64,000 bases of DNA, taken from Candidatus Dormiibacterota bacterium. GTDB taxonomy: Bacteria; Chloroflexota; Dormibacteria; Dormibacterales; Dormibacteraceae. The stretch lies in NCBI GenBank assembly GCA_036378695.1, contig DASUVY010000046.1, positions 489-64,488 of the forward strand. Reading direction: 5' to 3'. This document shows positions 30,167 to 50,300 of this stretch, in pieces; positions within the stretch are counted from its first letter, which is position 1; every line of letters begins with the position of its first letter. The notes below the pieces were generated by a model. It did not search any database and had not been told where the DNA came from. It saw only the letters and a program-made list of their open reading frames with translations. The position numbers and the translations under genes are program-made.

Positions 30167-31249
30167 TTGAACCTGCCCAACCTGCTGACGCTGAGCCGGC
30201 TGCTCGCGATCCCCGTGCTCGCGCTGCTGCTCTTCGGGCGCTACCCGGGCCACGACCAGCTGGCCGCCGGGGTCTTCTTGATCGCCTCCCTCACCGACAC
30301 CCTGGACGGGACCCTGGCCCGGCGCCAGGGCACCGTCACCGAGCTGGGCAAGTTCCTCGACCCCCTGGCCGACAAGCTCTTCATCCTCTCGGTCCTGATC
30401 TTCCTGGTCGCCCAGCAGGAGCTGCCCGCCTGGGTGGTGGTGGTGATCTTCGGCCGCGAGATGCTGATCACGATCCTGCGCTCGCTCAGCGCCGCCCAGG
30501 GCCACGTGGTCGCGGCGACCCCCTTCGGCAAGACCAAGACCGTGACCCAGGTCGGTGCCGTGCTGCTGCTGATCCTGGCCCGGCCCTACCCGCAGCTGAG
30601 CCTGATCTCGCTGGTCGGGATCGGCGTGGCCGTGGTCTTCACGGTCTGGAGCGGGGTCGACTATCTCTACCGGTTTCGCCACGTCATCGGCCGCCAGGCG
30701 CCCATGGCGGCGCCGCCCGACCACCTGGTCGACTGGCTGGCCGAGGACCTGGCCGGCAGCGGCAGCACGCTGGCGGTGGCGGAGTCCTGCACGGGCGGGG
30801 CCCTGGGCGCGCGCCTGACGGATAAGCCGGGCTCCTCGCGCTGGTTCCTGGGCGGCGTGGTCGCTTACTCCAACCAGGCCAAGCGCGACCTGCTGGGCGT
30901 CGATGAGGAGCTGCTGGACAGGCACGGCGCCGTCTCCGCGGAGGTGGCGGTGGCGATGGCGCAGGGCGTCCGCCGGCGCCTCGGCGCCGACGTGGGCGTG
31001 GCCGTGACGGGCATCGCCGGGCCCGAGGCCGACGCGACCGAGAAGCCGGTGGGCCTGACCTTCGTGGCGGCGGCCGCAGAGGGCGGAGAGCTGCACCGCC
31101 GCCATCTCTTCAAGGGTGATCGGCTGGCCAACCGGCAGCAGGCCGCCGAGGCCGCGCTCAAGGTTCTCCTTGACCTGCGAACAGACGTTCGCTACAATCC
31201 AAAGGCCCTCGACACTCGCGTCCAGGAGCCTTGGTTAAGACGGTTTTGA
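30167..31249 (+). CDS. pgsA: Fusion protein: CDP-diacylglycerol-glycerol-3-phosphate 3-phosphatidyltransferase (PgsA) plus CinA C-terminal/PncC-type nicotinamide-nucleotide amidase domain
   Basis: The N-terminal half has the CDP-alcohol transferase motif [12 protein letters not shown]...DPLADK. The C-terminal half has AESCTGG...[12 protein letters not shown]...TGIAGP. It is one uninterrupted 360-aa ORF. Confidence 0.85.
31170..31198 (+). promoter_or_regulatory. recA promoter with an embedded LexA (Cheo-type) box
   Basis: TTGACC (31170-31175), 17-bp spacer, TACAAT (31193-31198). The perfect palindrome CGAACAGACGTTCG (31178-31191) sits in the spacer. Confidence 0.75.
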
Positions 31250-32365: not shown

Positions 32366-32794
32366 CCGGGACCGGCTTACGACGCGGCGGTCCGGCTCCT
32401 GGCGACGCGCGCTCACTCGGGTCGCGAGCTGCGCACCAAGCTGCTGCGGCGGGGCCACCCCGAGCCTGAGGTGACGGCCGCCCTGGAGCGCCTCCGCCAG
32501 GGCGGCTACCTCGACGACGCCGCCTACGCCCGAGCCCTGGTCGGGCGGCGGTCCGGGGGCCGGGGCGCACGGGCCATCGCCTCCGAGCTGGCTGCCAAGG
32601 GCGTCGATCGCGAGGTCGTGCGCGACGCGCTGGCCGAGCTCAGCTATGAGGACCAGCTCCAGGCCGCACGTGCGCTCGCGGGTCGCCTGCGGCGCGCGGG
32701 CCCGATGGACTTTGAGCGGCTTGGAGCGCGGCTGTTGCGGCGCGGTTTCTCTGTCGAGGTCGCGCGCGCCGCGCTGCGAGATTTTCAGTCTTAA
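32366..32794 (+). CDS. recX: Recombination regulator RecX (5' boundary unresolved; no canonical start before 32471)
   Basis: RecX-like repeats (AYDAAVRLLATRAHSGRELRTKL..., GYLDDAAYARALV). The frame is open from 32300, but the first ATG/GTG/TTG is at 32471. Confidence 0.8.
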   Translation, partial: PGPAYDAAVRLLATRAHSGRELRTKLLRRGHPEPEVTAALERLRQGGYLDDAAYARALVGRRSGGRGARAIASELAAKGVDREVVRDALAELSYEDQLQAARALAGRLRRAGPMDFERLGARLLRRGFSVEVARAALRDFQS

Positions 32795-32914: not shown

Positions 32915-34459
32915 ATGCCTACCTACCTGATCGTGATTTTGGTAGCGGTGGTGACAGCGGTCCTCGCCGGTGGAGTCGGTTACCTGCTCGCCGCCTCGAC
33001 GGTCGGCAAGCGGCAGCGCCTGGAGCTTGGCGAGCTCGAGGCAAAACACCAGCAGCGGTTGCTCGACGTGGAGGCCGCTGCCAAGGAAAAGCTGCTGGAG
33101 GCCAAGGAAGAGGCGGTCCGCATTCGAACCGCGGCCGAGCAGGAGGCGCGCGAGACCAGGGCGCAGGCCCAACAGGTCGAGCGACGCCTGCTTCAAAAGG
33201 AAGAGAACCTGGAGAAGCGATCCGACGACCTGACCCGCCGGGAGGAGGGCTTTTCAGCGCGGGAGCGCGGGCTGGAGGAGATCCGGGCCCAGCTCGAGGA
33301 GACCTACAGCGCCCAGCTGCGTGAGCTGGAGCGGGTGGCCCAGATGACGCGTCAGGAAGCTCAGGGCGTCCTCATGACCCAGGTCGAGCAAGACCTCCGC
33401 AACGAGGTCGCGCGCAAAGTCCGGGAATCGGAGCTGGCCGCTCGCGACGAGAGCGAGCGCCGGGCCCGGGCGATCGTGACCGAGGTGATCCAGAGAATCG
33501 CCGCCGACCAGACTGCCGAGACCTCGGTCTCGGTCCTGCCACTACCCAACGAGGAGATCAAGGGCCGGATCATCGGCCGCGAGGGGCGCAACATCCGCGC
33601 CCTGCAGCAGGCCACCGGCATCGATCTCATCATCGACGACACCCCCGAAGCCGTGATCATCAGCGGCTTCGACCCGGTCCGCCGCGAGGTGGCCCGCACC
33701 GCGCTCAACAAGCTCATCGTCGACGGTCGGATCCATCCGGCCCGGATCGAGGAGGTTGTGAGCAAGGCCCGCCAGGAGGTGCTCCTGCGGGTCAAGGAGG
33801 AGGGGGAAGCGGCCGTAATGGAAGTCGGCTTCCAGGGCCTGCACCCGGAGGTGGTCCGCCACCTCGGCATCCTTCGCTTCCGCACAAGCTACGGCCAGCA
33901 GGTCCTCAACCATTCCAAGGAGGTCGCCTACCTGGCCGGCATGATGGCTTCCGAGATCGGCGCCGACGTCCGCATCTCCAAGATGAGCGGGCTCCTGCAC
34001 GACATCGGCAAGTCCATCGACCACGAGGTGGAGGGTTCGCACGCGGTGATCGGGGCCGACCTCCTGCAGCGGCACGGGGTCCCGGCGCCGGTCGTGCACG
34101 CGGTGCGCGCCCACCATTACGACGAGGAGCCTCACACCATCGAGGCCTTCCTCCTGATCGCCGCCGACGCCATTTCGGCCGCCCGGCCGGGCGCTCGCCG
34201 GGAGACGCTGGAGGCATACATCAAGCGGCTGGAGAAGCTGGAGGAGATCGCCAACTCCTTTCAGGGCGTCCAGCAGTCCTACGCCATCCAGGCCGGGCGC
34301 GAGATCCGCATCCTGGTCCGGCCCGAGCAGATCGACGATTCGTCGGCCCAGCTCATGGCTCGGGACATCGCCAAGCGGATCGAGAGCGAGATGAGCTACC
34401 CCGGGCAGATCCGGGTCACGGTCGTCCGCGAGACCCGCGCCGTCGAATACGCCAAATAG
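32915..34459 (+). CDS. rny: Ribonuclease Y
   Basis: N-terminal TM, coiled coil, KH ([14 protein letters not shown]) and HD domain (LLHDIGK). Confidence 0.93.
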
Positions 34460-45238: not shown

Positions 45239-45853
45239 CTAGTTGAGGAACCTCATAACGCCCTTGACCAGGCCCACGACCTGGGCGTTGGGCGCCACGA
45301 TCGGCTGGTAGTCCTCGTTCTCGGGCAGCAGCCGGACCTGGCCATTGCGGCGGTCCAGGCGCTTGCAGGTGGCCTCGCCGTCGACCATGGCCACGATGAT
45401 CTGGCCGTTGTCGGCGCTGGGCTGGGGCCGGACCAGTACCAGGTCGCCATCCAGGATGCCGGCGTTGACCATGGAGTCCCCGCGCACCTTGAGCAGGAAC
45501 CAGCCGTCCTGGGCCAGGGACTCGGAGATCAGGATGTGGTCCTCGATGTTCTGCTCGGCCAGGATCGGGGTGCCGGCGGCGACATTGCCGACCACCGGCA
45601 CGCGGACCGCGCCCCGGACCTCGTCAGCGTCACGACCGGCCTTGACCAGCTGCACCGTGCGCGACTTGCTGGGGTCGCGGTGGATGAGGCCGCGCCGCTC
45701 CAGCTGGTTCAGGTGGTTGTGCACCGTGGAGCTGGAGGACAGCCCGACCGCTTCGCCGATCTCGCGCACGCTGGGCGGGTAGTTGCGGGTGCGGCTGACG
45801 TGCCGGATGTACTCGAGGATCCGGGATTGCCGATCTGAGAGTTCTTCGTTCAA
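45239..45853 (-). CDS. lexA: LexA repressor
   Basis: Winged-helix N-terminus (PPSVREIGEAVGL), the Ala-Gly cleavage region VAAG, and S24 peptidase motifs (GDSM, IVA.V). TTG start. Confidence 0.95.
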   Translation of the reverse strand: MNEELSDRQSRILEYIRHVSRTRNYPPSVREIGEAVGLSSSSTVHNHLNQLERRGLIHRDPSKSRTVQLVKAGRDADEVRGAVRVPVVGNVAAGTPILAEQNIEDHILISESLAQDGWFLLKVRGDSMVNAGILDGDLVLVRPQPSADNGQIIVAMVDGEATCKRLDRRNGQVRLLPENEDYQPIVAPNAQVVGLVKGVMRFLN

Positions 45854-45906: not shown

Positions 45907-45964
45907 CGAACAAGTGATCGCGCAAACCTTTGTTCGTGCTAAGCTTCCTGCGAACAGATGTACG
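45907..45964. promoter_or_regulatory. Three tandem imperfect LexA boxes in the lexA / LysM-gene divergent region
   Basis: CGAACAAGTGATCG (45907-45920), CAAACCTTTGTTCG (45923-45936) and CGAACAGATGTACG (45951-45964). Each is one mismatch from CGAAC-N4-GTTCG, and the third overlaps the LysM gene ATG. Confidence 0.65.
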
Positions 45965-46218
45965 CGTTGCGCCGCGGTTGGCTTTTGGTCCTGGTACTGG
46001 CCTTGCTCTGCTTCGCGTGCGCGCGCTCGGCCTGGAGCGCCTCGGCGGCCGACTACGCCACGGTGACCGTGCGCCCGGGCGACACCGTCTGGTCGATCGC
46101 GGCCCAGCGCTATCCAGGCGCCGACACCCGCGACAAGGTGGGGGAGATCCTCGCCGCCAACCGGCTCCATGACTCCCTGTTGCGGCCGGGCCAGAAGCTC
46201 AGGGTGCCCAGCAGCTAG
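45958..46218 (+). CDS. Small membrane-anchored LysM protein, YneA/ChiZ-like candidate SOS cell-division inhibitor
   Basis: 86 aa with an N-terminal hydrophobic segment then a LysM domain (TVRPGDTVWSIAAQRY...GQKLRVP). Divergent from lexA with LexA boxes, as for B. subtilis yneA. Confidence 0.8.
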   Translation: MYALRRGWLLVLVLALLCFACARSAWSASAADYATVTVRPGDTVWSIAAQRYPGADTRDKVGEILAANRLHDSLLRPGQKLRVPSS

Positions 46219-46241
46219 AGGTCCGTCGCTACGCTGGCGCC

Positions 46242-46922
46242 GTGGCGCTGCAGTTGGTCACTCGAGGCGGTTGCCATCTCTGCGAGCAGGCCGAGTCGAT
46301 GCTGGGCGAGCGCGGGGTCGAGTTCGAGGCAGTGGACGTGGACGGTGACGCCGAGCTCTCGCGGCTCTACGACTTCCGGGTGCCGGTGCTGCTCCGCGGA
46401 GGGCGGGTGCTGGCCGAAGGCAAGATCGACGCCGTTGTCCTGGAACGGGTGCTGCCGGCGGTCCAAGCCGCCGGCGCCGAGTCCGCGCGTGAGGTGCACC
46501 GTCTCACGCAGCTGGCGTTCGCCGGCTACGGCTGGCTCACGCCGCCCTCCGGCGCCCTGTCCGAGACCGAGGACGACGTGCGGCGCGATCTCCAGCAGCA
46601 CGGAGGGGCCCTGGCCCGGCTGGACGGCGCCGCGGTCGGTGCCTTGCGCCTGCGCCAAGAGCCCAAGGCGTTGTGGGTGCGGCGGGTGGCGGTCGACCCC
46701 GCCCGCCAGGGCGACGGCGTGGGGCGGGCGTTGATGCGCTGGGCCGAGCGGCAGGCGGCCGCGCACGGGCTGGCGGAAGCGCGCTTGGGAGTTCGGGCGC
46801 AGCTGCCCGGCAACCGGGCCTTCTACGAGCGGCTCGGCTACCGGGTGCTGCGGGCCCACCCCAGGCCCGGGAGCGAAGAGGTGCACTGGCTGGAGATGGG
46901 GAGGTCGATAGCGACGGAGTAG
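46242..46922 (+). CDS. Fusion of a glutaredoxin-like (DUF836-type, CxxC) domain with a GNAT acetyltransferase domain
   Basis: N-terminus LVTRGGCHLCEQA...VDVDGD...VPVL. The C-terminus has the GNAT acetyl-CoA motif RVAVDPARQGDGVGRAL...FYERLGY. Confidence 0.75.
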   Translation: MALQLVTRGGCHLCEQAESMLGERGVEFEAVDVDGDAELSRLYDFRVPVLLRGGRVLAEGKIDAVVLERVLPAVQAAGAESAREVHRLTQLAFAGYGWLTPPSGALSETEDDVRRDLQQHGGALARLDGAAVGALRLRQEPKALWVRRVAVDPARQGDGVGRALMRWAERQAAAHGLAEARLGVRAQLPGNRAFYERLGYRVLRAHPRPGSEEVHWLEMGRSIATE

Positions 46923-46983
46923 GGCTGAGGCCGACCTCTCCACCTCACCAGGTCATGCGCCACATTACAGCACGTTTCATCAC

Positions 46984-47391
46984 GTGTTGTCAAGTGCCGC
47001 ATCGTGGCGTATGGTGGGCGGCGTGGACACGCCGGAAGCTGGCGCGATGCTGGCCGCTCGCACCCGACTGGGGCTGACTCAGCCGGCCTTCGCCGTCGCC
47101 CTGGCCAGCCAACTCGGCAAGCCGGTGGATCGCACGCAGGTCGCCAAGTGGGAGACCGGGGTCTACACGCCCCGGCCCCAGGTGGTCATGGCGGCCGCCC
47201 GGCTGGCGGGCCTGACGCTGCGAGAGCTGATCGCGGAGGGCGCCCAGTTCGACCACCGAGCCCCACGGTCCGGGTCGCGCTCGCGGCGTGCACTCTCCGT
47301 CGATCACCCGCGCGAGCAGCTCAAGGCTTTGCTCGAGTTCGGATTCAGCCTGCCCGAGGCGATCGAGCTGGTCCGGACACACGCTTCCTAA
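46984..47391 (+). CDS. XRE-family helix-turn-helix protein (start may be the GTG at 47023, leaderless)
   Basis: ARTRLGLTQPAFAVALASQLGKPVDRTQVAKWETG HTH. TTGTCA (46987-46992), 17 bp, TATGGT (47010-47015) lies just upstream of the GTG at 47023. Confidence 0.75.
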   Translation: MLSSAASWRMVGGVDTPEAGAMLAARTRLGLTQPAFAVALASQLGKPVDRTQVAKWETGVYTPRPQVVMAAARLAGLTLRELIAEGAQFDHRAPRSGSRSRRALSVDHPREQLKALLEFGFSLPEAIELVRTHAS

Positions 47392-47392
47392 G

Positions 47393-47475
47393 GCGCGACA
47401 GCCCCGTCTGTATACAAACGAGGCCGTCTGGGAAGCGCGACTGCCACCTCTGCACACAAACGTGGCAGTCGGGAC
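47393..47475 (+). repeat. Two tandem 42-nt hairpin repeats with conserved ACAAACG-containing loops (plus a partial third GCGCGAC unit at 47484)
   Basis: Units start at 47393 and 47435 and are about 80 percent identical by hand alignment. Unit 2 has a perfect 9-bp stem, GACTGCCAC/GTGGCAGTC, with a 14-nt loop. Confidence 0.6.
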
Positions 47476-47541
47476 CCATGGCAGCGCGACGGCTCAAAAT
47501 CCGGCTGTGGGAGGTTACGTTCGAGCAGTTGCGCGGAGAGC

Positions 47542-48648
47542 ATGGCGGACGGTGCTGGTCGCTGCGTTGTTGATCCTTGGCGGGGCGCTCCTGATCTTAC
47601 TACCTGGCGTCGCTATACCCAACGCGGTTCGGGCAAGGTCTGTTGGGATGATCGGGGAGGAAATGAGTTCCGGAGCCGGCGCTATAGCCAGAATGCTCTC
47701 GATAATCGCCGGAGTTCGTTCGTAACCGAGGTCTTGCGCGCGGGAGTAGGCGGACGCTTAGCGGAGGGGTCGAGCGCGCCTCTGGCGAGCAGGCGGAACG
47801 AACAGATGGGCGGCTGGAAGGGGTGCCTTGGTGGGGCCCCGCCACCGGCCCGCCAGCCGGTCCTCCCTGGCGGTGTTGAGGCGCAGCGGGACCCCGTAGC
47901 TAGTCCGCGACTACGAAGCGCGCCGTCCTTGTCTAGAGGCACATATTGGGGGCGTTGGGAATGTGCCTCGTATTGCGCCGAACAGTGTGAGGCGCTGTCT
48001 GCAAACGCTGAGCCGCGCCTAACGGTCGGTAGTGGGTCGGACATTGGCTTGCAAGCGACCTTGGAGCGGCTCTGGCCGTCAAGGGCCCCGGCGGCGGGCT
48101 CCCTCCTGCCCGCCACCTTCGGACCTGACCCCGGGGCCCACGAGTCGCCGCAGGCGGCGAGGGGTGGGGAGCTGGCCAGCTCGGACAGTGCCGGAGCCGT
48201 GGCTCCGGCGGGCGCGCTAGCGCCCAAGCCGCGTAAAGGTCGCCGTCGTTGCTGTCAGTACTGTTCAGGCGTTATCGAGAAGGGTGATGCGACTACTGGC
48301 TACCTGTATCACTCGGCTTGTTGGCAGGCTGCGGCCGAGCGTAGAGCGCCAGCTCTAGCCGAGGTCCGCGCTCAGGTTGAGAGTACTAACGCTGTGGCGG
48401 CCTACCTGGTCGCGCAGACACAAAATCGGCTACCGTCGCTGCTGGTGCCGTCAAGAGCAAGCCTCACGGTAAGCAGCGCAAAGTCTGGCGCGGCTCCTGA
48501 CGCCAGTCAGATTACTCGTGTCGGTACTGATGCGTGGCGCGGAGCGCCCGCTGCCCAGGGAGGAGGCACGGGTTCCAACAGAGTTGGAACGCCGATCAGT
48601 ACCGATGCTGTTGATAATCGCCGTTTAGGAAAGCACCAAGCCGGTTAG
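47542..48648 (+). CDS. Orphan ORF with Cys-rich motifs, atypical codon usage (internal ATG at 47806 may be the real start)
   Basis: A 368-codon open frame in a segment visibly less GC-rich than its neighbours. Codon first positions are G-rich. Contains C-x3-C-x3-C and a basic stretch followed by CCQYC-x17-HSAC. Confidence 0.35.
   Translation: MADGAGRCVVDPWRGAPDLTTWRRYTQRGSGKVCWDDRGGNEFRSRRYSQNALDNRRSSFVTEVLRAGVGGRLAEGSSAPLASRRNEQMGGWKGCLGGAPPPARQPVLPGGVEAQRDPVASPRLRSAPSLSRGTYWGRWECASYCAEQCEALSANAEPRLTVGSGSDIGLQATLERLWPSRAPAAGSLLPATFGPDPGAHESPQAARGGELASSDSAGAVAPAGALAPKPRKGRRRCCQYCSGVIEKGDATTGYLYHSACWQAAAERRAPALAEVRAQVESTNAVAAYLVAQTQNRLPSLLVPSRASLTVSSAKSGAAPDASQITRVGTDAWRGAPAAQGGGTGSNRVGTPISTDAVDNRRLGKHQAG
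47552..47725 (+). CDS. Possible small hydrophobic protein (57 aa), very uncertain
   Basis: A GTG-started frame encodes VLVAALLILGGALLILLPGVAIP... with one clear TM segment. It overlaps the 47542 ORF in another frame and has no clear SD. Confidence 0.25.
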   Translation: MLVAALLILGGALLILLPGVAIPNAVRARSVGMIGEEMSSGAGAIARMLSIIAGVRS

Positions 48649-48649
48649 G

Positions 48650-49030
48650 TTAGGCTGCCACCAGCTCGGCCGGAGCCTCCTCCAGGCCGCGCAGGAACAG
48701 CGAGAGCGGCAGCGCCGCGTCCTGGAAGCGCTGGTGCAGCCAGGACCGGTCGGCCGCCGGGCGCGCCAGCTCGGCCACAACCGACTCCAGGACGCGCAGC
48801 GTGCGCTCGACATGACGGTCCAGGACCGCGGCGCCGCCATCCAGGGCCGGTCGGCCGCCCGCCAGGTCGTCGCGCCAGGAGCCGCGCACGTCGGCCACCA
48901 GCTGCGCCAGACGGGCCCGGGCCGCCAGGGCCAGTTCGCCGTCGGCCGGCTCGGCCGCCAGGCGCTCCAGGTACTCGGCCTCCAGGCGGATCAGCCGCCG
49001 CAGCCGCATCTGCGTGGTCAGCGTACGCAT
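48650..49030 (-). CDS. Hypothetical helical protein (126 aa), candidate SOS regulon member
   Basis: ATG start, Arg/Leu/Ala/Glu-rich sequence with predicted helical character and no recognisable motif. A LexA-box promoter lies immediately upstream. Confidence 0.6.
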   Translation of the reverse strand: MRTLTTQMRLRRLIRLEAEYLERLAAEPADGELALAARARLAQLVADVRGSWRDDLAGGRPALDGGAAVLDRHVERTLRVLESVVAELARPAADRSWLHQRFQDAALPLSLFLRGLEEAPAELVAA

Positions 49031-49042
49031 GTTCGCATCGAC

Positions 49043-49071
49043 ATCATAACGAACAGGCGTTCGGAGCGCAA
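49043..49071 (-). promoter_or_regulatory. Promoter with an embedded perfect LexA box upstream of the 126-aa gene
   Basis: Minus strand: TTGCGC (49071-49066), 17-bp spacer containing CGAACGCCTGTTCG (plus-strand CGAACAGGCGTTCG, 49050-49063), then TATGAT (49048-49043). The ATG is 12 nt downstream. Confidence 0.65.
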
Positions 49072-49072
49072 G

Positions 49073-49702
49073 TCACGCCGGTGAAGGGGCGCGGCCCACG
49101 ATCAGGTTGAAAAAGCCCAGCGCCCAGCGCCGCGTCCAGGTCACCTCGACCCCGGCCTCGCGCACGAGCGCGGCCGTCCTCCGGTTGAAGTGGTCGGCGT
49201 CCAGGCGCACGGTGAGTGGGTTGATCAGGTCCTGGAGCAGCGCCACCGGCCAGAGGTGCGAGCGCACGTGCTCGAAGAAGACCAGCGCGGCGCCCGGCCG
49301 GGCCACCCGCAGCCCCTCGCGCACCGCCCGCAGAGGGTCGGGCACCGTGCAGAGGACCAGGTTGAAGGCCACCGAATCGAACACGGCATCGCCAAAGGGC
49401 AGCGCCTGGGCGTCGTCCTCGATCAGCGCCACCGGCAGCCCCAGCTCGGCGGCCCGCAGCCGGCACAGCCGCAGCATCTCCCGCGAGAGGTCGACGCCGG
49501 TCAGCTGGACCGCAGCCGGGTAGTAGGGCAGGGAGAGCCCGGAGCCGATGCCCACCTCGAGCACGCGGCCGCGCACGCTCTCCCCCACCTTCTGCCGGGC
49601 ATCCCGGGTCAAACGGTCCAGCAGCCCGATGCCGCGGTCGTAGCGCTCGGCGTTGCGGTTGTAGTTCTTGCGGATCCGGCGCAGCTCTCTCGCCGGGGTC
49701 AA
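49073..49702 (-). CDS. Class I SAM-dependent methyltransferase
   Basis: VLEVGIGSGLS SAM-binding motif I and a downstream acidic motif, 209 aa. Confidence 0.85.
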   Translation of the reverse strand: MTPARELRRIRKNYNRNAERYDRGIGLLDRLTRDARQKVGESVRGRVLEVGIGSGLSLPYYPAAVQLTGVDLSREMLRLCRLRAAELGLPVALIEDDAQALPFGDAVFDSVAFNLVLCTVPDPLRAVREGLRVARPGAALVFFEHVRSHLWPVALLQDLINPLTVRLDADHFNRRTAALVREAGVEVTWTRRWALGFFNLIVGRAPSPA

Positions 49703-49703
49703 G

Positions 49704-50300
49704 TCACGTCTCGGGCGCGAAGATGGCGCATAAGCCCCGGATCAGGGCCTCCAGGTCGACGTCGGGGTCGACCAGGAAGTGCGAGGTGGCCTCGTAGACC
49801 GCACCCACCACGGCCCGCCCGAAGACCTCGGGGTCGATGTCGCGGTAGAAGGGATCGGCAGCGCCGTGGGCGCGCACCTCGGCCTCCACGATGTGGGCGA
49901 AGCGGCCCAGCACCCGATGCCGGGCCTCTTCCACGGCCAGGTTGACGCCCACCGACTCCACCAGCAGCAGCCGGGCCAGCTGGGCCCGGGCCATGCAGTA
50001 GCGCACGAAGTGGGCGATGCCCCGGCGCAGGCGGGCGCGGTGGTCGCCGCCCTCGGCGCTGAACTCGAAGACCTCGGCGATCAGAGCGCCGCCCTGCTCC
50101 TCCAGGAGGTCGCGCACGCAGTCCTCCTTGGAGGTCCAGAACTCGTAGAAGGCCGACTTCGAGGTCCGGGCCTCGGCCACGATGTCGTCGACCGAGGTCT
50201 CGTTGAAGCCGTCGCGCGCGAACAGGCGCATGGCGGCCTCGACCAGGCGCTGCTTGCGGGCGCCCCGCCGCTCTTCCCGATTCCCCGCCACCGCTGCCAC
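49704..50300 (-). CDS. TetR/AcrR family transcriptional regulator
   Basis: N-terminal HTH RLVEAAMRLFARDGFNETSVDDIVAEARTSKSAFYEFW. Confidence 0.88.
   Translation of the reverse strand: MAAVAGNREERRGARKQRLVEAAMRLFARDGFNETSVDDIVAEARTSKSAFYEFWTSKEDCVRDLLEEQGGALIAEVFEFSAEGGDHRARLRRGIAHFVRYCMARAQLARLLLVESVGVNLAVEEARHRVLGRFAHIVEAEVRAHGAADPFYRDIDPEVFGRAVVGAVYEATSHFLVDPDVDLEALIRGLCAIFAPET

What the first reader, a model, noticed from the sequence alone, without database searches (positions are those of the whole stretch)
48650..49075. Orphan 126-aa protein behind a perfect LexA box set inside a recA-style promoter
CGAACAGGCGTTCG (49050-49063) is a perfect CGAAC-N4-GTTCG palindrome. It differs from the recA box (CGAACAGACGTTCG, 31178-31191) at one spacer base.

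On the minus strand it fills the 17-bp spacer between TTGCGC (-35) and TATGAT (-10). This is the same box-between-hexamers layout as the recA promoter. The ATG of the 48650-49030 gene follows 12 nt after the -10 element, so the transcript would be nearly leaderless.

The product is Arg/Leu/Ala/Glu-rich, probably all-helical, and has no motif I recognise. It lies 3.2 kb from lexA, at the edge of an atypical-composition patch. A tightly LexA-controlled gene of unknown function is a good candidate for an undescribed DNA-damage response factor.
Basis: partly seen in the sequence, partly recalled or inferred. Interest (0 to 1): 0.72.

Follow-up and report, generated by a model that had tools for sequence, protein, structure and literature searches.

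The report
Phylum-wide LexA-controlled four-helix-bundle gene
A small gene next to lexA in an uncultured soil bacterium (Dormibacterota) is almost certainly switched on by DNA damage: its promoter carries two LexA repressor sites conserved across the phylum, but its product, a four-helix-bundle protein, resembles nothing known.

Summary
CGAACAGGCGTTCG (49050-49063) is one of only two perfect CGAAC-N4-GTTCG sites in 64 kb; the other is at recA. It fills the 17-nt spacer between TTGCGC and TATGAT, 12 nt before the ATG of a 126-aa ORF.

The window comes from a Candidatus Dormibacterota MAG. The ORF is not a true orphan. It belongs to a small family restricted to this phylum (88 clusters among 1.84 billion representatives; 59 species loci), with dN/dS about 0.5 and a confident four-helix-bundle model. 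It matches no Pfam, NCBIfam, PADLOC, PHROG, PDB or BFVD entry.

The box is kept, with at most one mismatch, in 58 of 60 distinct orthologous promoters. It fixes Arg2 as the rare codon CGT in 47 of 47 orthologs that have it.

In 38 of 44 loci the gene lies 1-6 kb from lexA. The YneA-like LysM gene beside lexA has the same two-operator, near-leaderless layout.

Verdict: a real, tightly LexA-repressed core SOS gene of Dormibacterota, and a new protein family in a known kind of regulon. LexA control is strongly supported by comparison but untested. The biochemical role is inferred only, probably a short-lived, non-enzymatic binding factor.

The parts
49066..49071 (-). -35 hexamer TTGCGC of the gene X promoter
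   Evidence: Read directly. A TTG at this position is conserved in nearly all 60 orthologous promoters; the family consensus is TTGCAA/TTGACN. It matches only 3 of 6 consensus bases here, so the generic scan did not call it.
49050..49063 (.). LexA operator 1, a perfect CGAAC-N4-GTTCG palindrome inside the 17-nt promoter spacer
   Evidence: A PWM trained on non-window sites scores it 25.3, equal to the recA site. It is conserved in 58 of 60 distinct orthologous promoters.
49043..49048 (-). -10 hexamer TATGAT
   Evidence: A TAnnnT is conserved at this position in orthologs.
49022..49035 (.). LexA operator 2, CGAACATGCGTACG on the minus strand (one mismatch). It covers the likely transcription start, the ATG, and codons 2-3.
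   Evidence: Found by the 1-mismatch scan. PWM score is 17.7, third best in 64 kb. Arg2 is CGT in 47 of 47 orthologs with GAAC before the ATG, against 5.5% CGT at other Arg codons of the same genes; the codon varies when GAAC is absent. The same 14-mer serves as operator 1 in L059.
48650..49030 (-). Gene X: 126-aa soluble four-helix-bundle protein, a Dormibacterota-specific family
   Evidence: GC3 is 0.91. 20 homologs, then 88 clusters. Median dN/dS is 0.55, and the C-terminal residue is Ala in 56 of 58. AF2 pLDDT 89.7, pTM 0.84, helices 4-26, 31-58, 66-87 and 95-118. No family or fold match.
45239..45853 (-). lexA, the trans-acting repressor presumed to bind both operators
   Evidence: TIGR00498 equivalog, 216 bits. 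The Ala-Gly cleavage site and the Ser and Lys catalytic residues align with E. coli LexA.
45907..45964 (.). lexA/LysM divergent control region with three boxes (45907-45920, 45923-45936, 45951-45964). The last one, CGAACAGATGTACG, covers the ATG of the LysM gene. This is the comparator that shows the same two-operator design.
   Evidence: Across the phylum the LysM promoter reads TTGACA-[box]-TACAGT-10 nt-ATG, with CGAAC-N4-GTACG over the ATG.
31178..31191 (.). recA promoter LexA box (comparator), CGAACAGACGTTCG between TTGACC and TACAAT
   Evidence: recA is confirmed by TIGR02012.

Best explanation
Gene X (48650-49030, minus strand) is a real protein-coding gene and a core member of the LexA (SOS) regulon of Dormibacterota.

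Regulation. In undamaged cells, LexA dimers are proposed to occupy two operators. Operator 1 lies in the spacer between -35 and -10 and would block RNA polymerase binding. Operator 2 spans the transcription start and the first three codons and would block open-complex formation or escape. Operator 2 could also stop read-through from the upstream TetR/methyltransferase genes. DNA damage produces RecA filaments, LexA cleaves itself, and both sites clear. The resulting mRNA has a leader of about 4-6 nt at most and no Shine-Dalgarno, so it is translated in the leaderless manner.

Product. The protein is a soluble 126-aa four-helix bundle without catalytic motifs. The most likely role is a stoichiometric binding factor, a modulator or adaptor of a DNA-transaction or cell-cycle machine. 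It would use the invariant arginine ladder of helix 1 (R9, R11, R12, R15, R23) and the FLRGL face of helix 4. It is probably short-lived because of its invariant C-terminal Ala (-SA or -AA), a tail reminiscent of ssrA- and RecN-type ClpXP degrons.

What is shown by sequence and comparison: gene reality, operator positions and conservation, codon-level constraint, linkage to lexA, and the fold.

What is inferred: LexA binding, damage induction, the transcription start, the binding-factor role, and the degron. Confidence in the regulatory part is about 0.85. Confidence in the 'non-enzymatic, short-lived binding factor' part is about 0.3. The single confidence value given (0.75) refers to the core claim: a real protein-coding gene directly repressed by LexA.
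For: - Motif specificity in the window: two perfect sites against 0.05 expected.
- An independent PWM ranks recA, X operator 1, X operator 2 and the LysM ATG box as the top four sites of 64 kb, then lexA, then nothing above zero.
- Motif specificity across loci: of 89 perfect boxes in 584 kb from 62 loci, 52 are at X promoters, 36 are in lexA/LysM control regions, and 1 is at another near-leaderless gene.
- Operator 1 is conserved in 58 of 60 distinct promoters, mostly at -33, and in the most distant homolog.
- Operator 2: Arg2 is CGT in 47 of 47 orthologs, against a 5.5% background. The other invariant Arg positions use 2-6 codons. Arg2 varies when GAAC is absent.
- The layout matches recA and LysM.
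- LexA is present and its cleavage motifs are intact.
- lexA lies 1.15-5.6 kb from X in 38 of 44 loci.
- Coding evidence.
- Fold.
- No enzyme family or motif is detected.
- The CGAAC-N4-GTTCG box is the published LexA site of Bacillus and Staphylococcus (PMC9578287). A leaderless SOS gene has precedent in M. tuberculosis lexA (PMC2897130).
Against: - There are no experimental data of any kind, and the phylum has no cultured member among these MAGs.
- The window's -35 matches only 3 of 6 consensus bases, and the generic promoter scan does not call the promoter.
- Operator 2 carries a T-to-A change at a conserved half-site position.
- The two operators start 28 bp apart, which is not an integral number of helical turns, so cooperative binding is not obvious.
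- With 12 nt between -10 and ATG, the mRNA may carry a few 5' nucleotides and so not be strictly leaderless.
- One lineage (L007/L056/L063) has lost operator 1.
- dN/dS of about 0.5 is high for a core factor.
- Net charge is not conserved (pI 4.7-11.5), which argues against generic nucleic-acid binding.
- The fold is a generic bundle and gives no functional pointer.
- No domain fusions or conserved operon partners were found that could hint at a partner.
Confidence: 0.75

Rival explanations
1. Operator 2 is not a LexA site. The conserved CGAACATGCGTAC around the start codon would instead be a transcription-start or translation-initiation context needed by a near-leaderless mRNA. LexA would then act through operator 1 only.
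For: The element covers the expected +1 and the 5' end of the mRNA. It deviates from the consensus at a conserved T. The 28-bp spacing from operator 1 is out of helical phase. Five orthologs do without it, and those have a shorter -10-to-ATG distance of 6-8 nt.
Against: - It matches the LexA half-sites at 9 of 10 positions and scores third in the whole window with a PWM trained elsewhere.
- The identical 14-mer is used as the spacer operator in L059.
- The unrelated LysM gene carries a CGAAC-N4-GTACG box over its ATG in a different codon register, so the shared feature is the LexA-like palindrome and not a particular mRNA 5' sequence.
Confidence: 0.15
2. The palindrome is the operator of the neighbouring TetR-family regulator (49704-50300), not of LexA. 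X would then be part of the TetR/acyl-CoA dehydrogenase unit.
For: A TetR gene lies upstream of X in 51 of 62 loci, and directly adjacent in some. TetR operators are also short palindromes.
Against: The same motif sits in the recA promoter and the lexA/LysM control region, here and across the phylum, and almost nowhere else in 584 kb. It equals the established LexA box of Gram-positive bacteria (PMC9578287). No such box is seen at the TetR/ACAD promoters in the loci scanned.
Confidence: 0.03
3. X is an SOS feedback modulator acting specifically on RecA filaments or on LexA itself. It would be a functional analogue of DinI, RecX or phage gp7-type factors, which would explain its stable position beside lexA.
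For: X is small, non-enzymatic and LexA-controlled, and is linked to lexA in 38 of 44 loci. It has a conserved exposed arginine ladder suited to an acidic partner surface. This is a specific version of the best explanation.
Against: A RecX is already encoded after recA, and X has no similarity to it. There is no DinI or RecX Pfam signal. Linkage to lexA may only reflect a frozen gene order that also includes ACAD and TetR.
Confidence: 0.15
4. X is a divergent member of the DinB/YfiT-like four-helix-bundle enzymes, the damage-inducible metal-dependent bundle proteins of Bacillus.
For: It is a four-helix bundle and is LexA-controlled. One of 18 family members gives a DinB_2 hit at E = 0.13.
Against: No His triad or any conserved His, Cys or acidic cluster is present. 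X is 30-50 residues shorter. There is no significant Pfam hit for any member, and no DinB/YfiT structure appears among the top 50 Foldseek matches.
Confidence: 0.04
5. The ORF is not translated. The LexA-controlled promoter would instead drive a non-coding or antisense RNA.
For: There is no Shine-Dalgarno sequence and no protein-level evidence. The antisense frame also shows a high-GC periodic pattern.
Against: The open frame is kept in 58 distinct orthologs down to about 40% identity, with dN/dS below 1. There are synonymous changes at conserved residues, for example six different codons at Leu4. A confident, compact AF2 fold is obtained from a shallow alignment. There is no Rfam match.
Confidence: 0.02

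Closest known systems
Cheo-box (CGAAC-N4-GTTCG) SOS genes of Bacillus, Staphylococcus and Mycobacterium, such as recA, dinB, dinC, uvrB
   Same: They share the operator sequence, with the operator overlapping the core promoter. Repression is by a self-cleaving LexA, and recA and lexA in the same genome carry the motif (PMC9578287).
   Different: The gene product has no relative in any of those regulons. One operator is built into the first three codons. The transcript is nearly leaderless.
lexA-divergent yneA-yneB-ynzC cluster of B. subtilis and chiZ (Rv2719c)-lexA of M. tuberculosis (from my own knowledge)
   Same: Small SOS-induced proteins are encoded right beside lexA. The LysM gene at 45958-46218 is the positional and architectural counterpart of YneA/ChiZ, and X belongs to the same neighbourhood.
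   Different: X has no transmembrane segment or LysM domain and no similarity to YneB or YnzC in Pfam. It is convergent to the LysM operon and has its own promoter.
DinI and RecX, small LexA-controlled RecA modulators
   Same: They have the same size class, are non-enzymatic and are damage-induced, and a stoichiometric binding mode is plausible.
   Different: The fold differs: DinI is alpha/beta and RecX is three 3-helix repeats, whereas X is a single up-down four-helix bundle. There is no sequence or profile similarity, and RecX is already present at 32471-32794.
Multi-operator SOS promoters (E. coli lexA, recN and colicin genes; B. subtilis lexA) (from my own knowledge)
   Same: More than one LexA site per promoter gives tight repression and late or graded induction.
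   Different: Here the sites start 28 bp apart, with one in the spacer and one over +1 and the ATG. The second site is constrained jointly by the operator and by the Met-Arg-Thr coding sequence.
Leaderless SOS transcripts of Actinobacteria, such as M. tuberculosis lexA (PMC2897130)
   Same: There is no 5' UTR or Shine-Dalgarno, and the promoter sits directly against the start codon. Five orthologs have the canonical 6-8 nt between -10 and ATG.
   Different: In the window and in most orthologs the distance is 10-12 nt. A 4-6 nt leader, which is the CGAAC half-site itself, is therefore likely. The start has not been mapped.

Membership tests
LexA (SOS) regulon, Gram-positive Cheo-box type | CGAAC-N4-GTTCG palindrome overlapping the core promoter of the gene | tested here: met
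   Perfect site at 49050-49063, between -35 and -10. A second, one-mismatch site is at 49022-49035.
LexA (SOS) regulon, Gram-positive Cheo-box type | The same motif at recA and lexA of the same genome, and rare elsewhere | tested here: met
   The top five PWM hits in 64 kb are recA, X (two sites), LysM and lexA. Of 89 perfect boxes in 584 kb of related loci, 88 are at X or lexA/LysM promoters.
LexA (SOS) regulon, Gram-positive Cheo-box type | Site conserved in orthologous promoters (phylogenetic footprint) | tested here: met
   58 of 60 distinct promoters have at most one mismatch. The most distant homolog also has it.
LexA (SOS) regulon, Gram-positive Cheo-box type | A LexA with HTH domain, Ala-Gly site and Ser/Lys dyad encoded in the genome | tested here: met
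   TIGR00498, 216 bits. VAAG, GDSM and CKRL align with the E. coli LexA cleavage and catalytic residues.
LexA (SOS) regulon, Gram-positive Cheo-box type | LexA binds the site; transcription is induced by DNA damage in a recA/lexA-dependent way | not testable with these tools
   Needs EMSA or footprinting, and reporter or RNA data.
Leaderless mRNA | No Shine-Dalgarno; -10 hexamer ends about 6-8 nt before the start codon, so that +1 is the A of ATG | tested here: inconclusive
   There is no SD. The distance is 12 nt in the window and 10-12 nt in most orthologs, and 6-8 nt in only five. The start site has not been mapped.
DinB/YfiT-like damage-inducible four-helix-bundle enzymes | Pfam DinB or DinB_2 match, and a conserved metal-binding His triad | tested here: not met
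   No significant hit; 1 of 18 members reaches only E = 0.13. No conserved His. No DinB/YfiT structure appears in the Foldseek top 50.
RecX | Three tandem 3-helix repeats; RecX Pfam or profile similarity | tested here: not met
   AF2 gives a single four-helix bundle. hhalign against the window's own RecX gives probability 0.1%. There is no Pfam hit.
SOS cell-division inhibitors of the YneA/ChiZ type | N-terminal membrane anchor plus LysM domain | tested here: not met
   X has no hydrophobic segment (maximum 19-residue hydropathy 0.83) and no LysM. The neighbouring gene 45958-46218 does meet this test.
Known anti-phage defence or phage protein families | Match to PADLOC or PHROG profiles, or to viral structures | tested here: not met

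The most novel reading that the evidence does not exclude
X founds a new, Dormibacterota-specific class of SOS effector. It would be a short-lived four-helix-bundle protein that acts on a target not addressed by any known SOS protein family, for example a checkpoint on replication, transcription or translation. Its expression would be locked by an operator that is written into its own first three codons.
Probability: 0.35. Interest if true: 0.65.

Novelty: new member of a known kind. Interest (0 to 1): 0.48.

Why it matters
Dormibacterota are abundant in soils and permafrost and have essentially no experimental genetics. This work outlines the core of their SOS regulon from sequence alone: recA, lexA, a YneA-like LysM gene and X. 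It shows that the Gram-positive LexA box extends to this phylum.

It also singles out one uncharacterised protein family whose regulation is conserved at least as well as its sequence. That family is the natural first target for finding lineage-specific DNA-damage functions.

The start-codon operator is a clean example of a regulatory site and a coding sequence constraining each other. A rare CGT codon is fixed in 47 of 47 species. This is useful as a benchmark for methods that detect non-coding constraint inside genes.

Tried and rejected
- **Family and fold searches.** All were negative or non-significant:
  - Pfam on X and on all 18 aligned members at E up to 5.
  - NCBIfam, PADLOC and PHROGs.
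  - A profile search against PDB sequences (best E = 0.008, to a designed repeat protein).
  - Foldseek against PDB (best E = 0.23, generic or de novo bundles, chemoreceptor and FAT/talin domains).
  - Foldseek against BFVD.
- **Domain fusions.** I looked for fusions among the longer HMM hits. They are frameshifted or chimeric gene calls.
- **RecX analogue.** Rejected, because recX is present after recA and there is no profile similarity.
- **Exact-sequence look-up.** The look-up of the window protein found no contig.
- **RNA genes.** Rfam over the whole window, a permissive Rfam scan of the patch, and a tRNA/tmRNA scan found nothing.
- **Promoter and terminator.** The generic promoter scan does not call the X promoter. 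No convincing intrinsic terminator follows X (fold z-score -0.3).
- **The adjacent patch.** The 47380-48650 patch has no similarity to phage or plasmid records, nor to other loci beyond the HTH gene.
- **Literature.** Full-text searches for Dormibacterota or Dormibacteraeota together with LexA or SOS response returned nothing.
- **Conserved-residue mapping.** Model coordinates are not exposed by the tools, so conserved residues could not be mapped onto surface or core. The statement about helix faces is inference from the sequence periodicity.
Full report
**1. Observation**

Reading the minus strand gives this order:
- The stop codon of a methyltransferase gene (TGA, 49075..49073).
- -35 TTGCGC (49071..49066).
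- The dinucleotide tc.
- CGAACGCCTGTTCG (49063..49050).
- A single t.
- -10 TATGAT (49048..49043).
- gtcgatgcgaac, 12 nt without a Shine-Dalgarno.
- The ATG at 49030 of a 126-codon ORF that ends at 48650.

The perfect CGAAC-N4-GTTCG pattern occurs only twice in 64 kb (31178 and 49050). That compares with 0.05 expected, and 0 of 100 shuffles reached two. The other copy differs at one spacer base and lies in the same position of TTGACC-17-TACAAT, upstream of recA. recA is confirmed by TIGR02012 and lexA by TIGR00498. The ORF has the composition of a real high-GC gene, with GC at codon positions 1/2/3 of 0.87/0.50/0.91.

**2. Origin, and whether the ORF is a gene**

The identical protein is recorded as a hypothetical protein of a Candidatus Dormibacteraeota MAG. 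Twenty homologs down to 44% identity exist, and none has a functional name (the few that are labelled say only 'hypothetical protein'). An exhaustive profile search of 1.84 billion cluster representatives finds only 88 clusters. Apart from truncated or chimeric calls, all are single-domain and about 120-140 aa. A scan of GTDB species representatives returns 59 loci. Almost all are labelled Dormibacterota. The few labelled otherwise carry the same gene order and are probably mis-binned contigs.

Several lines show the ORF is translated:
- The frame is intact in 58 distinct orthologs.
- Pairwise dN/dS has a median of 0.55, and 0.36-0.66 against the window gene.
- Conserved residues show free synonymous variation, for example six codons at Leu4.

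So it is a real but fairly fast-evolving protein. 'Orphan' should be read as 'phylum-restricted family without annotation'.

**3. The box is conserved, and there are two of them**

I aligned 60 distinct orthologous promoters on the start codon. Operator 1 is perfect in 53, has one mismatch in 5, and is degenerate only in one lineage (L007/L056/L063). It always lies between a TTGnnn and a TAnnnT hexamer, usually at -33. The most distant relative (profile E = 3e-5) still reads TTGCTT-tt-CGAACGCCTGTTCG-ta-TAGCAT-aagcac-CGAACATGCGTACG.

In the window it is CGAACATGCGTACG (49035..49022), one mismatch from the consensus. It was recovered independently by the 1-mismatch scan.

A control within the same genes and the same phylogeny shows a nucleotide-level constraint:
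- In all 47 orthologs with GAAC before the ATG, Arg2 is encoded by CGT.
- CGT makes up only 5.5% of the 727 other Arg codons of those same genes.
- Every other invariant Arg position uses 2-6 different codons.
- In the 11 orthologs without GAAC, Arg2 is CGC, CGA, AGA, CGG or CGT.

Met-Arg-Thr itself is kept in both groups. So the protein fixes the amino acids, and the operator fixes the codon. In L059 the same 14-mer serves as the spacer operator.

**4. Specificity for LexA**

I trained a PWM only on sites from other genomes. It ranks recA (25.4), X operator 1 (25.3), X operator 2 (17.7), the box over the LysM start codon (15.6) and the lexA box (6.9) as the five best sites in the window. Everything else scores at or below zero. 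Shuffled windows give a mean maximum of 4.6.

In 584 kb of related loci there are 89 perfect boxes:
- 52 at X promoters.
- 36 in the lexA/LysM divergent region.
- 1 in front of a LAGLIDADG-like gene that has the same promoter style.

The LysM gene is the positional counterpart of YneA/ChiZ. Across the phylum its promoter reads TTGACA-[box]-TACAGT-10 nt-ATG, with CGAAC-N4-GTACG over the ATG. This is the design of X, in a different codon register. That argues that the shared element is a LexA site and not an mRNA 5' signal.

The LexA protein has the Ala-Gly cleavage site and the Ser/Lys dyad. The motif is the published LexA box of Bacillus and Staphylococcus (PMC9578287).

**5. Genomic setting**

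The conserved order is ACAD - TetR - (methyltransferase in about a third of loci) - X, followed on the other strand by Glrx/GNAT and LysM, and then by lexA divergent from LysM. lexA starts 1.15-5.6 kb (median 1.6 kb) from the X start in 38 of the 44 loci with enough flank. X always has its own promoter and no conserved co-transcribed partner.

In this window the distance is larger because about 1.7 kb (46909-48604) is inserted relative to the close relative L001. The insertion holds an Xre-type HTH gene (46984-47391), followed by about 1.25 kb with no coding frame. So the 'atypical patch' is an unrelated insertion and not part of the X system.

**6. The protein**

AlphaFold2 with the 18-sequence alignment gives a confident up-down four-helix bundle (pLDDT 89.7, pTM 0.84; helices 4-26, 31-58, 66-87 and 95-118).

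- There is no transmembrane segment.
- Invariant residues are M1, R2, L4, Q7, R9, R11, R12, R15, R23, R40, L41, L44, W52, D94, L109, L113, G115 and L116.
- There is no conserved His, Cys or acidic cluster, so no obvious catalytic or metal site.
- No library recognises it.
- Foldseek returns only generic or designed bundles.
- Net charge is not conserved (pI 4.7-11.5). The last residue is Ala in 56 of 58 orthologs, as -SA, -TA or -AA, although the length of the tail varies.
- A RecX is already encoded after recA and is unrelated to X.

**7. Mechanism**

Regulation is strongly supported by comparison but is untested. LexA would occupy operator 1, occluding the promoter, and operator 2, covering +1 and the ATG. 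RecA-stimulated self-cleavage would clear both sites. The mRNA has at most a few 5' nucleotides and is translated in the leaderless manner. Precedent exists in the leaderless lexA mRNA of M. tuberculosis (PMC2897130). Two operators predict tight repression, as at the LysM division-inhibitor gene.

Function is inferred, with confidence of about 0.3. The most likely role is a stoichiometric, non-enzymatic binding factor that uses the arginine ladder of helix 1 and the FLRGL face of helix 4. It may be removed quickly through its C-terminal Ala tail. From my own knowledge, ssrA-tagged proteins and E. coli RecN are ClpXP substrates through C-terminal Ala-Ala. The target is unknown. RecA or LexA feedback is one specific possibility.

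**8. Weak points**

- The window's -35 is poor (3 of 6), and the generic scan misses the promoter.
- Operator 2 has a mismatch at a conserved position and is out of helical phase with operator 1.
- The transcription start is unmapped.
- One lineage has lost operator 1.
- No expression or binding data exist.
- No paper in the searchable library links Dormibacterota with LexA or the SOS response.

**9. Verdict**

It is a new protein family in a well-known kind of regulon: a core SOS gene of Dormibacterota with a dual-operator, near-leaderless promoter. Interest is moderate. The regulation is textbook in kind, but the family is uncharacterised and conserved across a phylum, and it offers a neat case of an operator embedded in coding sequence.

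Noticed in passing
window 46909-48604: About 1.7 kb is present here but absent from the close relative L001. It holds an Xre-type HTH_3 gene (46984-47391), which only L009 shares, followed by about 1.25 kb (47400-48650) with GC of about 0.62 and no coding frame. A 19-nt direct repeat, ATGCTSTYGATAATCGCCG, occurs at 47693-47711 and 48605-48623, and the second copy lies exactly where homology to L001 resumes. This looks like an integration scar or a decayed mobile element. There is no Rfam, phage or plasmid match.
   Followed up: partly
window 45907-46922: The LysM gene (45958-46218) has a membrane anchor plus a LysM domain, is YneA/ChiZ-like, and is divergent from lexA. It has the same dual-operator, near-leaderless design as X, with CGAACAGATGTACG over its ATG. 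It is followed 24 nt later by a glutaredoxin-like/GNAT acetyltransferase fusion (46242-46922) that is probably co-transcribed and so would be SOS-induced as well.
   Followed up: partly
window 32471-32794: A short (107 aa as called) RecX-like ORF (GYLDDAAYA...) lies between recA and RNase Y (32915-34459). Its true start may be further upstream.
   Followed up: no
L065 7263-7779: This is the only perfect LexA box outside X and lexA/LysM promoters in 584 kb. It sits in the spacer of TTGGCT-18-TACACT, 7 nt before the ATG of a 162-aa LAGLIDADG-like protein (AAGILDGEGC). This is an apparently leaderless, LexA-controlled homing-endonuclease-type gene.
   Followed up: partly
L007 / L056 / L063, 60 nt upstream of the X start: One lineage has lost operator 1 (TCGGGGGCGATCGCGGT in the spacer) but keeps operator 2, and it is not linked to lexA. 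Gene callers extended its ORF upstream to a TTG start.
   Followed up: partly
L023, L033, L036, L045, L052, L057, L063, L066 (record titles): Contigs with the typical Dormibacterota gene order ACAD-TetR-X-LysM-lexA are labelled Micrarchaeaceae, Verrucomicrobiia, Eisenbacteria, Nitrosotalea, Terriglobales, Bacillota or Acidiferrales. These are probably mis-binned contigs in MAG catalogues.
   Followed up: no
window 49118-49132 (minus strand): A terminator-like hairpin followed by a T-run (CGGCGCTGGGCGCTG GGCTTTTTCA) lies inside the 3' end of the methyltransferase gene, about 45 nt before the X promoter. It might limit read-through into X, or it might be chance.
   Followed up: no
L049/L050 and L024/L060: Two X loci occur in each of two MAGs (SMAG_U4686 and SMAG_U5349). 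In the first pair, each locus also has a lexA/LysM region nearby. This more likely reflects two strains binned together than true paralogs.
   Followed up: no
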